Shown here piece after piece: positions 15,923-17,319 of a stretch of 46,268 nt of DNA. Under the pieces are notes generated by a model. That model saw nothing but the letters and a program-made list of their open reading frames with translations. It made no database searches and was not told the origin of the DNA. Made by a program: the position numbers and the translations under genes. Where the stretch lies: NCBI GenBank assembly GCA_964565435.1, contig CAZMEY010000001.1, forward strand, positions 1 through 46,268, written 5' to 3'. The DNA is from Candidatus Woesearchaeota archaeon (GTDB taxonomy: Archaea > Nanobdellota > Nanobdellia > Tiddalikarchaeales > Tiddalikarchaeaceae). Every line of letters begins with the position of its first letter. Position 1 is the stretch's first letter.

Positions 15923-16408
15923 ATGAGCGAAGAGGACTATGATGAAGAATATTGCTCAAATGAAGCCAACCCTTACAAATTCCTTATAGACAATATTGAA
16001 AAAATCCAATTATTAGACAAAGAATCCTGGAAAAATAAATGCTTTGAATCCCTTGGCAGAATAAAAAAAGAGGAAAAATACCTGTTTTTTAAAATGAAAC
16101 AGCCAATAGAAGAGCAATTAAAATACTATTCTAAAAATGAAAAAAACATGGAAGAATTGGATGAAATCCTCACTATTTTAAACCCAGAATACAGCTTTTA
16201 CGAATACCATAGTATTATGCAATCCTTGGCTGAAGCGGAATATGGCGAAAAAAAAGGGGCTAACTTAGAATATTTTATAATAAAAGATGAGGAAAATAAA
16301 ACAACCGGGTTTTTTGCTTTCCCTAAAGATATGATTAAAGAGATGAAATCTAATAAAGAGAAAAAAATATCTGAGAGCAATGAAAGATGCAGGGGGATGT
16401 TCTTATGA
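15923..16408 (+). CDS. Acidic hypothetical protein (161 aa), first gene of a coupled pair
   Basis: ATG at 15923 is preceded by aggagggg (15913-15920). The track ORF starts at TTG 15896. Its stop TGA at 16406-16408 overlaps the ATG of the next gene at 16405. Confidence 0.5.
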   Translation: MSEEDYDEEYCSNEANPYKFLIDNIEKIQLLDKESWKNKCFESLGRIKKEEKYLFFKMKQPIEEQLKYYSKNEKNMEELDEILTILNPEYSFYEYHSIMQSLAEAEYGEKKGANLEYFIIKDEENKTTGFFAFPKDMIKEMKSNKEKKISESNERCRGMFL

Positions 16409-17319
16409 AAGCTGCCAAAACATTGGAGGAAAGAATAATATATGATTTGAAGCGCAGCGGATTGGATTATGACAATTTCAAAGACAAATATGAAATGGGC
16501 AAAAAGCAGGTTAAAGAATTTTATGAAGATTTGAAATCAAAAGGCTACAATATCCAAAGAAATATGTTTGACGGTGATGTAAAATATTTTATTGACAATT
16601 CTCCTAAAAGCGAAACAATATATGTACCAATAGAGGCTGTTGATGAAAATTTCAGCCTAGGGCTTATGAGCGACCCCCACTTATGCGATAAAGCCTGCAA
16701 GCTTGATGCCTTAAATAATTATTATGACACTATCTCTGATAGGGGTATAAAATATGTCCTTAATGCAGGAGATATCTTTGCAGGAATAGGAGTTTATCAA
16801 GGCCAAGAAAATGATGTTATTTGCTGGGGGCTTGATAATCAACTGGATTATGTTGTTAAAAATTATCCTATAAGGAAGGGGGTAATAACGGAGTTCATTG
16901 GGGGAAACCATGATTATAGCTTTACAAAAAAGTGCGGGGTTGACGCATGCAGGCTGCTAGCAAATGAAAGGGAGGATTTGGTTTATATGGGAATGTATAA
17001 CTCTATGATTAACTTGGGAGGGATAGAGATTGAATTGGAGCATTTGAAAAAATCTCCTCCTTATGCTGTAAGCTATCACGGGCAAAAATATGTTGAAAGA
17101 AGAGCCCATAAACCGAATATATTATTACTTGGCCACAGGCACACAACAATGTACCTATATTATGCAGGAGTGCATATCTTTGAAGGCGGCACTTTTCAGG
17201 GCAGCAACACATTAAGCAAAGAATTGGGATTCAATGAATTCATTGCAGGATGGATTATTGATATAACCCAAAAAGATGGAGTAATAAAAAAAATCAAGCC
17301 AGAGCTGATAAGCTTTTAA
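16405..17319 (+). CDS. DP1-like (PolD small-subunit family) metallophosphoesterase paralog with an N-terminal wHTH-like domain and no OB-fold region
   Basis: It is collinear with the PDE half of the DP1 in this window:
- SDPHLCD vs SDIHIGS
- NAGDIFAGIGVYQGQEND vs VGDLADGVGVYPGQEKE
- GGNHD vs PGNHD
- ILLLGHRHT vs ILATGHIHT
- GGTFQ vs ASCFQ
ATG 16405 is preferred over 16387 because of the ATGA overlap. Confidence 0.75.
   Translation: MKAAKTLEERIIYDLKRSGLDYDNFKDKYEMGKKQVKEFYEDLKSKGYNIQRNMFDGDVKYFIDNSPKSETIYVPIEAVDENFSLGLMSDPHLCDKACKLDALNNYYDTISDRGIKYVLNAGDIFAGIGVYQGQENDVICWGLDNQLDYVVKNYPIRKGVITEFIGGNHDYSFTKKCGVDACRLLANEREDLVYMGMYNSMINLGGIEIELEHLKKSPPYAVSYHGQKYVERRAHKPNILLLGHRHTTMYLYYAGVHIFEGGTFQGSNTLSKELGFNEFIAGWIIDITQKDGVIKKIKPELISF

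What the first reader, a model, noticed from the sequence alone, without database searches (positions are those of the whole stretch)
15923..17319. Short DP1-like phosphoesterase paralog coupled to an acidic orphan protein, directly abutting orc1/cdc6 and the origin
The 304-aa product of 16405-17319 is collinear with the phosphoesterase half of the genuine PolD small subunit encoded 3 kb away. The shared blocks are SDPHLCD/SDIHIGS, AGDIFAGIGVYQGQE/VGDLADGVGVYPGQE, GNHD/GNHD, GHRHT/GHIHT and GGTFQ/ASCFQ.

The G[IV]GVYxGQ block is characteristic of the DP1/B-subunit family rather than of generic calcineurin-like phosphoesterases. All metal-binding motifs are intact, so it is probably an active nuclease or phosphoesterase.

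It lacks the N-terminal and OB-fold regions of DP1. In their place it has a domain of about 85 aa that resembles a winged helix.

Its ATG overlaps the stop of an acidic 161-aa orphan gene (ATGA at 16405-16408), and its own 3' end overlaps the 3' end of the convergent orc1/cdc6 by 4 nt. Base composition looks native. A second, OB-less DP1-family enzyme tied to the initiator and origin could be an accessory proofreading or end-processing factor, an alternative DP2 partner, or a captured plasmid or viral replication module. I know of no described function for this arrangement.
Basis: partly seen in the sequence, partly recalled or inferred. Interest (0 to 1): 0.7.

Follow-up and report, generated by a model that had tools for sequence, protein, structure and literature searches.

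The report
Virus-type DP1-like nuclease beside orc1
The gene next to the replication initiator encodes a stand-alone nuclease-like enzyme related to the proofreading subunit of the archaeal replicative polymerase, but it belongs to a large, unstudied family carried mainly by viruses and is swapped between this tiny archaeon and its viruses, so it is probably not a fixed part of the host replication machinery.

Summary
ORFs, motif blocks, the ATGA start/stop overlap and the 4-nt convergent overlap with orc1/cdc6 are all present. The 304-aa protein is closer to PolD small subunit DP1 than to Mre11/SbcD or YfcE by HMM, PDB profile and predicted fold. It has an N-terminal winged helix instead of DP1's OB fold.

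The replication-linked interpretation is mostly not supported:
- The family is overwhelmingly viral: at least 565 IMG/VR loci, and all six sampled contexts outside this lineage are tailed-virus contigs. Several are bacteriophage-like, and their bacterial hosts would be expected to lack PolD.
- Adjacency to orc1 occurs only in one narrow Candidatus Nanoarchaeia lineage.
- Within that lineage the gene body has been replaced. It is 45% identical in a strain whose neighbours are 82-97% identical.
- The window allele is 77-79% identical to genes on virus contigs, one from the same sample as a near-identical host strain.
- The host copy is still under strong purifying selection (dN/dS 0.05).
- The acidic partner is a near-orphan and is interrupted by a stop codon in one strain.

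Best reading: a virus-shared, DP2-independent DP1-type phosphodiesterase/exonuclease fixed at a recombination hot spot beside orc1. Its role is unknown.

The parts
15923..16408 (+). Acidic 161-aa protein (pI 4.9), translationally coupled upstream partner. Member of a very small family.
   Evidence: ORF and RBS. Only 4 close homologues in 5.8 billion clusters. Only 5 representatives among 1.84 billion proteins. No Pfam, NCBIfam, PHROG or PADLOC hit. AF2 pLDDT 73 with no PDB fold match. Interrupted by an in-frame stop in strain L011.
16405..17319 (+). 304-aa winged-helix plus DP1-like metallophosphoesterase (alternative start 16387, 310 aa).
16423..16596 (+). N-terminal winged-helix domain (residues 7-64).
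   Evidence: AF2 topology H7-17, H22-29, H33-45, E49-55, E58-64. Weak MCM_WH_arc hit, E 0.018. Weak MarR-family hits, E about 0.3. Conserved across the archaeal clade.
16648..17313 (+). Phosphoesterase domain (residues 82-303). Invariant D90, G122-D123, G127, G167-N168-H169-D170, H213, G243, H246. H169 aligns with the H451 position mutated in proofreading-deficient P. abyssi DP1.
   Evidence: Family alignment. PDB alignments to DP1, including 6hms and 6hmf. Foldseek top 10 hits are all DP1.
16350..17200 (.). Segment replaced between strains (approximate breakpoints), i.e. a cassette-like allele swap of the phosphoesterase gene body.
   Evidence: Nucleotide identity to syntenic L008 falls from about 0.8 to 0.54-0.61 over windows starting 16400-17000, is 0.69 at 17100, and returns to 0.85 or more from 17200. 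A second breakpoint near 16100 is seen against L013. dS outliers.
17316..18527 (-). orc1/cdc6 initiator, 403 aa from the ATG (the ORF extends to a GTG at 18596). Convergent with the phosphoesterase gene, 4-nt overlap.
   Evidence: Pfam Cdc6_C and Cdc6_lid, NCBIfam ORC1-type. 403-aa orthologues.
18585..18991 (.). Probable replication origin: ORB-like repeats (inverted copy 18585-18613, direct copies 18895-18917 and 18962-18984) around an AT-rich unwinding region.
   Evidence: Repeat families D2 and I3. Sequence. GC 0.30.
12033..13526 (-). Genuine PolD small subunit DP1 (497 aa; OB fold plus phosphoesterase).
   Evidence: PF04042, PF00149 and an OB hit. NCBIfam 431 bits.
6680..10204 (-). PolD large subunit DP2 (1174 aa).
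   Evidence: Pfam PolC_DP2_N, central and catalytic domains.

Best explanation
The 304-aa product is a stand-alone, DP2-independent member of a large, uncharacterised family carried mainly by tailed viruses of bacteria and archaea. Each member has an N-terminal (winged) helix-turn-helix domain fused to a DP1-type two-metal phosphoesterase domain.

History in this genome:
- In a Candidatus Nanoarchaeia lineage a copy shared with that lineage's viruses has become fixed between a small acidic-protein gene and the 3' end of orc1/cdc6.
- It is maintained there by purifying selection.
- Its gene body has been exchanged by recombination among strains. The alleles have their closest relatives on virus contigs.

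Inferred mechanism (not shown): the winged helix tethers the enzyme to DNA or to a partner protein. The phosphoesterase domain carries the full DP1-like active site, with H169 equivalent to P. abyssi DP1 H451, and hydrolyses phosphodiester bonds at DNA ends in the manner of DP1's 3'-5' exonuclease.

In viruses the gene sits in or at the edge of the replication/recombination module, or just upstream of the terminase genes. This suggests a role in processing replicating or recombining DNA, or in degrading the opponent's DNA.

Adjacency to orc1 is a lineage-specific accident of insertion site, not a functional coupling to the origin.
For: Shown:
(1) DP1 is the nearest characterised relative.
- NCBIfam hits only PolD small-subunit models, E 3e-14.
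- 24 of 25 family members hit those models, best E 2e-17, against 1-3 members for YfcE, Mre11 or SbcD at E 1e-4 or weaker.
- The family profile against PDB finds only DP1 chains at E 2e-14 to 7e-10, and no Mre11/SbcD at E up to 1.
- The Foldseek top 10 hits are all DP1, E 1e-13 to 7e-10. Vps29 and Mre11 follow at about 1e-8.
(2) Architecture: winged helix plus phosphoesterase, no OB fold.
(3) Viral family.
- All six sampled contexts outside the lineage are virus contigs carrying terminase, portal, capsid, tail, RecT, RusA or SSB genes.
- The BFVD top hit aligns over the full length, E 2e-27, TMq 0.76.
- The only cultured carrier is Halorubrum tailed virus BLv36.
- No plasmid hit.
(4) Virus-host sharing and replacement.
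- The window allele is 77-79% identical to genes on virus contigs L001 and L002, which share nothing else with the window.
- L001 comes from the same sample as the near-identical host contig L013.
- Against syntenic L008 the neighbours are 82-97% identical but this gene is 44.5% identical. The nucleotide identity drop is confined to the gene body.
- The L008 allele has its own relatives, one on a virus-like contig and one elsewhere in a cellular contig.
- Host and viral sequences interleave in both allele types in an NJ tree.
(5) Functional host gene: dN/dS 0.049 with dS like the neighbours against L011. The active-site columns are invariant.
(6) No other fetched locus has orc1 beside the gene.
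Against: - No biochemical evidence for any activity. Calcineurin-like phosphoesterases are catalytically promiscuous, so the substrate could be a nucleotide or a phosphoprotein.
- The direction of transfer (virus to host or host to virus) is not resolved. The tree is a simple NJ tree without support values.
- Synteny next to orc1, with DP1, DP2, RPA and a Toprim (DnaG-like) protein nearby, is conserved in all four strains seen, so a lineage-specific replication role is not excluded.
- Virus assignment of L001, L002 and L097 rests on gene content, not on isolates.
- The contigs sampled are a small fraction of the family.
Confidence: 0.6

Rival explanations
1. Host replication accessory: a second DP1-family subunit acting at the origin or fork as an extra proofreader or end-processor, or as an alternative partner of DP2.
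For: DP1 is the closest relative. The gene lies in a replication-gene neighbourhood with DP2, DP1, orc1 plus origin, RPA and a Toprim (DnaG-like) protein. Synteny is conserved in four strains. Purifying selection is strong.
Against: It lacks the OB and N-terminal domains of DP1. Several homologues sit on bacteriophage-like contigs, and bacteria are not expected to have PolD. No orc1 linkage exists outside this lineage. The gene body was replaced by a 45%-identical allele while neighbours stayed 82-97% identical, which is unusual for a fitted replisome subunit. The distribution across genomes is sporadic.
Confidence: 0.12
2. Virus-host conflict module: the acidic protein and the nuclease form a two-gene cassette. 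It would work like a nuclease with an acidic inhibitor, immunity protein or DNA mimic, used for virus exclusion by the host and for counter-defence or host-DNA degradation by viruses.
For: Allele replacement and recombination breakpoints at the cassette. Near-identical genes occur in host and co-occurring viruses. In archaeal virus contigs L001 and L097 a different, non-homologous acidic protein of about 150 aa (pI 4.8) is also translationally coupled upstream. A phage metallophosphoesterase that degrades host DNA to evade defence has been described (PMC12287305). One Woesearchaeota homologue sits beside Lon-like and trypsin-like proteases.
Against: No PADLOC hit. dN/dS is low, so there is no sign of diversifying selection. 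The acidic gene carries a premature stop in strain L011 while the nuclease gene is intact, which argues against an essential antidote. No acidic-family homologue was found in any fetched viral locus, and one family member lies without the nuclease. The mycobacteriophage enzyme is not a detectable homologue.
Confidence: 0.2
3. Small-molecule phosphodiesterase: the enzyme hydrolyses nucleotides (cyclic or dinucleotide signals, Ap4A and similar) and not DNA.
For: The fold is shared with YfcE, ApaH and Vps29-type enzymes. One phage homologue lies among nucleotide-metabolism genes NrdD, NrdG and dUTPase.
Against: Sequence and fold are consistently closest to the DP1 exonuclease. The fused winged helix and the replication or packaging contexts in other phages point to nucleic acid.
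Confidence: 0.06
4. Decaying remnant of an integrated virus with no function in the host.
For: Viral family. Only one or two genes of apparent viral type are present. The acidic gene is disrupted in one strain.
Against: dN/dS is 0.049 over a dS of 0.82, all catalytic residues are intact, and the gene is retained in four strains.
Confidence: 0.02

Closest known systems
PolD small subunit DP1 (archaeal 3'-5' proofreading exonuclease; NCBIfam PRK04036 models; PDB 5ihe, 6hmf, 6knb, 8ppt)
   Same: Calcineurin-like phosphoesterase domain with all five metal-binding motifs. The GD-x-x-x-G-[IV]-G-[VI]-Y-x-G-Q block follows motif II. The C-terminal GH-x-H...[FW]Q block is shared. DP1 is the best HMM, PDB-profile and Foldseek match.
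   Different: No OB fold and no DP1 N-terminal domain; a winged helix takes their place. Scores are far below the family cut-offs (52.8 against 445 bits). No PF04042 hit. The family is mainly viral, and several members sit on bacteriophage-like contigs whose hosts would lack DP2.
Uncharacterised viral helix-turn-helix plus metallophosphoesterase proteins (PHROG 7339 'DNA repair exonuclease'; BFVD A0A516LV74; virome proteins auto-named 'DNA polymerase II small subunit'; Halorubrum tailed virus BLv36 ORF43)
   Same: Same two-domain architecture and 28-79% identity over most or all of the length. Full-length structural match at E 2e-27. PHROG 7339 at E 5e-14.
   Different: Here the gene is chromosomal, syntenic in a Nanoarchaeia lineage, translationally coupled to a lineage-specific acidic protein, and convergent with orc1.
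Mre11/SbcD nucleases
   Same: Same superfamily fold. Foldseek E about 1e-8 to 1e-7.
   Different: No hit with the family profile against PDB at E up to 1. Only 1-2 of 25 members hit the models at E 2e-3 or weaker. No Rad50/SbcC partner was seen beside the gene in the loci whose neighbours were annotated.
Mycobacteriophage cluster A metallophosphoesterase Gp48 (PMC12287305)
   Same: A phage-encoded metallophosphoesterase with phosphodiesterase activity, reported to damage host DNA and silence defence genes. It is a possible functional analogue.
   Different: Not detectably homologous: tblastn of two family members against 50,697 phage records found only BLv36.

Membership tests
PolD small subunit DP1 / B-subunit family (PF04042, NCBIfam PRK04036) | Phosphoesterase domain with the five metal-binding motifs, and DP1 as the nearest relative | tested here: met
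   Invariant D90, GD122-123, GNHD167-170, H213, G243/H246. DP1 is the only or top hit by NCBIfam, PDB profile and Foldseek.
PolD small subunit DP1 / B-subunit family (PF04042, NCBIfam PRK04036) | Score above the curated family thresholds | tested here: not met
   Best NCBIfam score 52.8 bits against a cut-off of 445. PF04042 not reported at E up to 1, whereas window DP1 scores 41.5 bits.
PolD small subunit DP1 / B-subunit family (PF04042, NCBIfam PRK04036) | OB-fold domain preceding the phosphoesterase domain, plus the DP1 N-terminal domain | tested here: not met
   The AF2 model shows a three-helix, two-strand winged helix at residues 7-64 and nothing else before the phosphoesterase domain. 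HMM alignments cover only the phosphoesterase part.
PolD small subunit DP1 / B-subunit family (PF04042, NCBIfam PRK04036) | Obligate partnership with a DP2 or PolB catalytic subunit C-terminal domain | tested here: inconclusive
   The window encodes DP2 and a full DP1. Several homologues lie on bacteriophage-like contigs, and no DP2 was seen in the neighbourhoods that were annotated. Physical interaction could not be tested.
PolD small subunit DP1 / B-subunit family (PF04042, NCBIfam PRK04036) | 3'-5' exonuclease activity | not testable with these tools
   Only inferred, from conservation of the catalytic His equivalent to P. abyssi H451.
Viral helix-turn-helix plus DP1-like metallophosphoesterase family (uncurated) | N-terminal (w)HTH plus C-terminal phosphoesterase, alignable over the full length, and encoded in tailed-virus genomes | tested here: met
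   Alignments A1 and A2. At least 565 IMG/VR loci, many matching residues 2-304. BFVD full-length match. Virus contexts.
Mre11/SbcD | Sequence membership and an adjacent Rad50/SbcC partner | tested here: not met
   No PDB Mre11/SbcD hit with the family profile. 1-2 of 25 members hit at E 2e-3 or weaker. No SMC-like neighbour.
YfcE/MJ0936/Vps29-type small phosphodiesterases | Best match to TIGR00040-type models with a single-domain protein of about 170-190 aa | tested here: not met
   2 of 25 members hit at E 1.7e-4 or weaker. Foldseek E about 1e-8, below the DP1 hits. The protein has an extra domain.
Known anti-phage defence systems (PADLOC) | Match to a defence-system protein model | tested here: not met
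   No hit for either protein of the pair.

The most novel reading that the evidence does not exclude
The winged-helix plus DP1-like enzymes are a widespread, DP2-independent viral nuclease family spanning viruses of bacteria and archaea. This would bear on the origin of the DP1 and eukaryotic B-subunit lineage, either as a viral source or as a viral capture. In Nanoarchaeia, the acidic-protein plus nuclease cassette beside orc1 would be a new, recombinationally swapped virus-exclusion or counter-defence module in which a small acidic protein regulates the nuclease.
Probability: 0.15. Interest if true: 0.75.

Novelty: new variant of a known kind. Interest (0 to 1): 0.5.

Why it matters
DP1 and its inactivated eukaryotic B-subunit descendants are usually treated as an archaeo-eukaryotic replisome component. 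A large family of OB-less, helix-turn-helix-fused DP1-like enzymes in tailed viruses, several on bacteriophage-like contigs, shows that this nuclease module also exists independently of PolD. The family appears unstudied: a literature search for 'DP1-like' returned nothing, and the only labels found are automatic ones.

The locus also gives a clean example of gene exchange between DPANN archaea and their almost unknown viruses. That offers a handle for linking Nanoarchaeia viruses to their hosts.

For genome annotation, the lesson is that a DP1-like gene beside orc1 should not be read as a replisome subunit.

Tried and rejected
- GTDB genome scan with the diverse alignment A2 failed because no conserved stretch was available. 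The scan with the single protein found nothing. Only the archaeal-clade alignment worked, and its patterns make that census incomplete.
- Plasmid collection: no match, so the 'captured plasmid module' idea was dropped.
- PADLOC: no hits.
- Cultured phages: only BLv36 ORF43, annotated as hypothetical.
- Acidic protein: no family hits and no PDB fold match.
- The profile-profile comparison with the analogous viral upstream acidic proteins was negative, probability 0.1%. I do not claim homology, only analogy.
- A conserved gene partner across 85 viral loci was sought by clustering and none was universal.
- Searching for attachment-site-like direct repeats around the cassette gave only short, chance-level repeats.
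- Literature searches for 'DP1-like' and for PolD small subunit in phages found no description. Kazlauskas et al. 2020 (PMC7544198) list three divergent archaeal DP1 groups but no viral OB-less group.
- The dN/dS value for the acidic gene against L011 is unreliable. The cause was not established; that copy carries an in-frame stop.
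Full report
**1. What is in the sequence**

- An acidic ORF runs 15923..16408 (+). Its ATG lies 6 nt after AGGAGG. It encodes 161 aa with pI 4.9.
- It is followed by an ORF ending at 17319.
- That ORF's ATG at 16405 overlaps the upstream stop as ATGA and is preceded by GGGGGA. An alternative ATG at 16387 gives the 310-aa form used by NCBI.
- The convergent orc1/cdc6 gene occupies 17316..18527. Orthologues are 403 aa, and the ORF extends to a GTG at 18596. The two 3' ends therefore overlap by 4 nt.
- The origin is real but lies on the other side of orc1. It consists of two direct and one inverted ORB-like repeat (TTTCCATAGGAAACAATGGGGTG at 18895 and 18962; inverted copy at 18585-18613) around an AT-rich stretch.
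- The window is chromosomal DNA. It carries DP2, DP1, orc1, RPA, a Toprim (DnaG-like) protein and several tRNA synthetases.
- It comes from a Candidatus Nanoarchaeia archaeon, judged from the names given to members of the 90%-identity cluster of its Orc1.

**2. Is it DP1-like?**

Yes, by every test available.
- Pairwise BLASTP to the window DP1 gives two blocks at E 4e-6 and 7e-5.
- Pfam sees only a sub-threshold Metallophos_2 hit.
- NCBIfam's only hits are the five PolD small-subunit models, best E 3e-14.
- phmmer against PDB finds only DP1 chains.
- A profile of 25 family members against PDB finds DP1 at E 2e-14 to 7e-10 and no Mre11/SbcD at E up to 1.
- 24 of the 25 members individually hit DP1 models, best E 2e-17. 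Only 1-3 hit YfcE, Mre11 or SbcD, at E 1e-4 or weaker.
- An AlphaFold2 model (pLDDT 88.6) has DP1 structures as its ten best PDB matches, E 1e-13 to 7e-10. Vps29 and Mre11 follow at about 1e-8.
- The catalytic His of GNHD (H169) aligns with the position mutated in the proofreading-deficient P. abyssi DP1 H451 variants.

Membership in DP1 proper also fails:
- Scores are far below the curated cut-offs (52.8 against 445 bits).
- PF04042 does not hit.
- The OB fold and the DP1 N-terminal domain are absent. A winged helix at residues 7-64 replaces them. It gives weak MCM_WH_arc and MarR-type similarities.

**3. Where else is it found?**

The word-indexed search returned 23 proteins.
- Every one of the six contexts outside this lineage is a tailed-virus contig.
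  - L001 has a tail protein and ERCC4.
  - L002 has a terminase.
  - L003 has RecT, RusA, terminase and a P22-type portal.
  - L004 has TerL, portal and capsid genes.
  - L006 has NrdD, NrdG, dUTPase and RNA ligase.
  - L007 has SSB and a terminase.
Many align over residues 2-304.
- In BFVD the best match aligns over the full length (E 2e-27, TMq 0.76). Several virome proteins already carry the automatic label 'DNA polymerase II small subunit'.
- Among 50,697 deposited phage genomes, only Halorubrum tailed virus BLv36 ORF43 (annotated hypothetical) matches.
- There is no plasmid match.
- In species-representative genomes the clade pattern found 21 loci scattered over Nanoarchaeia, Woesearchaeota, Nanobdellati, Thermosipho, Bacillota, Mollicutes and Patescibacteria MAGs. 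This distribution is patchy, as expected for a virus-borne gene.
- Clustering the neighbours in 85 viral loci found no universal partner.
- Recurrent neighbours are terminase genes a few genes downstream. In one lineage a D5-like primase-helicase and a phage ssDNA-binding protein lie directly upstream.
- PHROG 7339 ('DNA repair exonuclease') is the nearest phage family, E 5e-14.
- The family therefore functions without DP2. Several members sit on bacteriophage-like contigs, and from general knowledge their bacterial hosts have no PolD.

**4. The host locus**

The arrangement DP1, 512-aa secreted protein, wHTH membrane protein, acidic protein, phosphoesterase, orc1, 185-aa protein, P-type ATPase, RPA, eIF5A is syntenic in three other contigs. 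These are L008, L011 and L013.
- Against L008 the neighbours are 82-97% identical at the protein level (Orc1 96.8%, DP1 91.5%). The phosphoesterase is 44.5% identical.
- Sliding nucleotide identity against L008 drops to 0.54-0.61 over windows starting 16400-17000 and is back to 0.85 or more from 17200.
- Against L008, dS for the gene is saturated at 1.87, against 0.6-0.9 for the neighbours. The acidic gene has a neighbour-like dS of 0.73. Only the phosphoesterase gene body was replaced there.
- Against L013 the flanks are almost identical (dS 0.02-0.08). From about 16100 onward, covering the 3' half of the acidic gene and the start of the phosphoesterase gene, divergence jumps to dS 0.4-0.56. 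This is a second recombination breakpoint.
- Against L011 the gene behaves like its neighbours (dS 0.82) and has dN/dS 0.049. The host copy is therefore functional and constrained.

The window allele ('type A') is 77-79% identical to genes on virus contigs L001 and L002.
- Those contigs share nothing else with the window.
- L001 comes from the same JGI sample as host contig L013.

The L008 allele ('type B') has its own relatives.
- One is 67% identical and lies on a 110-kb cellular contig, in a different position without orc1.
- One is 58% identical and lies on a virus-like contig.

In an NJ tree rooted on DP1, the archaeal clade is monophyletic. Host and viral sequences interleave in both allele types, and BLv36 falls nearby. 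No fetched locus outside the lineage has orc1 beside the gene. A Woesearchaeota homologue is followed by two trypsin-like peptidases and a Lon-like protease.

**5. The acidic partner**

- It has four close homologues, all in the same lineage.
- Only four further representatives exist among 1.84 billion proteins, at 31-42% identity.
- One of these lies on a short contig followed by small unrelated ORFs, with no phosphoesterase.
- It matches no curated family. Its moderate-confidence model (pLDDT 73) has no PDB fold match.
- No acidic-family homologue was found in any viral locus fetched.
- In archaeal virus contigs L001 and L097 a different ORF of about 150 aa overlaps the start of the phosphoesterase gene. 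It too is acidic (pI 4.8). The two viral ORFs are homologous to each other (E 1e-13).
- They show no detectable relation to the host acidic family (hhalign probability 0.1%).
- This analogy hints at a regulatory or inhibitor partner. However, in L011 the acidic gene carries an in-frame stop near codon 19 while the phosphoesterase gene is intact. That argues against an indispensable antidote.

**6. Interpretation**

Shown:
- A DP1-type phosphoesterase domain with an intact active site, fused to a winged helix.
- A mainly viral family.
- Virus-host sharing and in-situ allele replacement.
- Purifying selection in the host.
- Linkage to orc1 confined to one lineage.

Inferred:
- The enzyme acts on DNA ends as a DP1-like exonuclease, tethered by the winged helix.
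- It acts independently of DP2.
- Its position beside orc1 reflects where a virus-shared gene became fixed, not a role at the origin.

Its biological role remains open. It could be viral or host DNA processing, or a weapon in virus-host conflict. A published example of a phage metallophosphoesterase that damages host DNA to evade defence (PMC12287305) is a functional analogy only, because no homology was detectable.

**7. Novelty**

I found no description of an OB-less, helix-turn-helix-fused, virus-borne DP1-like family.
- A search for 'DP1-like' returned no papers.
- The survey of DP1 and B-subunit diversity by Kazlauskas et al. (PMC7544198) lists only three divergent archaeal groups.
- Automatic labels do exist in virome data and in PHROGs.

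I rate it a new variant of a known kind. It is of moderate interest for the evolution of DP1 and the B-subunits, and for DPANN virus-host biology.

Noticed in passing
window 18585-18991: Well-formed archaeal origin upstream of orc1. Two direct ORB-like repeats (TTTCCATAGGAAACAATGGGGTG at 18895 and 18962) and one inverted copy (18585-18613) flank an AT-rich stretch.
   Followed up: partly
window 15416-15467 and 19166-19217: A 52-nt inverted repeat (81% complementary) lies inside the wHTH-membrane gene (15220-15714, +) and the 185-aa gene (18994-19551, -). The two proteins share a KW-NE-KN--DSLKK motif (BLASTP E 2e-5). Two distantly related wHTH genes therefore flank the acidic/phosphoesterase/orc1/origin block in inverted orientation.
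   Followed up: partly
L011 440-925: In this strain the acidic gene has an in-frame stop near codon 19, and gene callers start at an internal Met (102 aa). The downstream phosphoesterase gene is intact.
   Followed up: yes
L001 7552-8004 and L097 7562-8017: Archaeal virus contigs carry their own acidic protein of about 150 aa (pI 4.8) overlapping the start of the phosphoesterase gene. The two are homologous to each other but not to the host acidic family.
   Followed up: yes
L103 7956-13975 (Woesearchaeota MAG JAHWHG010000008.1): A phosphoesterase homologue is followed, co-directionally and with overlaps, by two trypsin-like peptidases and a Lon-like AAA protease. This may be a defence-island-like module.
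   Followed up: no
window 26001-28000: Marked low-GC stretch (0.23-0.27 against about 0.36) containing a 446-aa Fic/DOC-domain protein (26295-27635, -). It is probably a horizontally acquired insert.
   Followed up: no
window 44177-44304: Rfam finds a 128-nt tRNA match (45.9 bits) that ARAGORN did not report. It is probably an intron-containing archaeal tRNA.
   Followed up: no
L001, L002, L097: Virus-like contigs of 25-40 kb with GC 0.30-0.35, apparently tailed viruses of Nanoarchaeia-type hosts. Genes include tail, terminase, ERCC4 nuclease, glycosyltransferases, methyltransferases and many ORFans. L001 co-occurs with host contigs L013 and L095 in JGI sample 3300037067.
   Followed up: partly
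L104 8019-8828 and L103 8310-8828: The window's genuine DP1 hits these Woesearchaeota family members directly by tblastn (E 1e-12 and 1e-11, 27-30% identity over 208-323 aligned residues). This is stronger than its match to the window paralogue.
   Followed up: no
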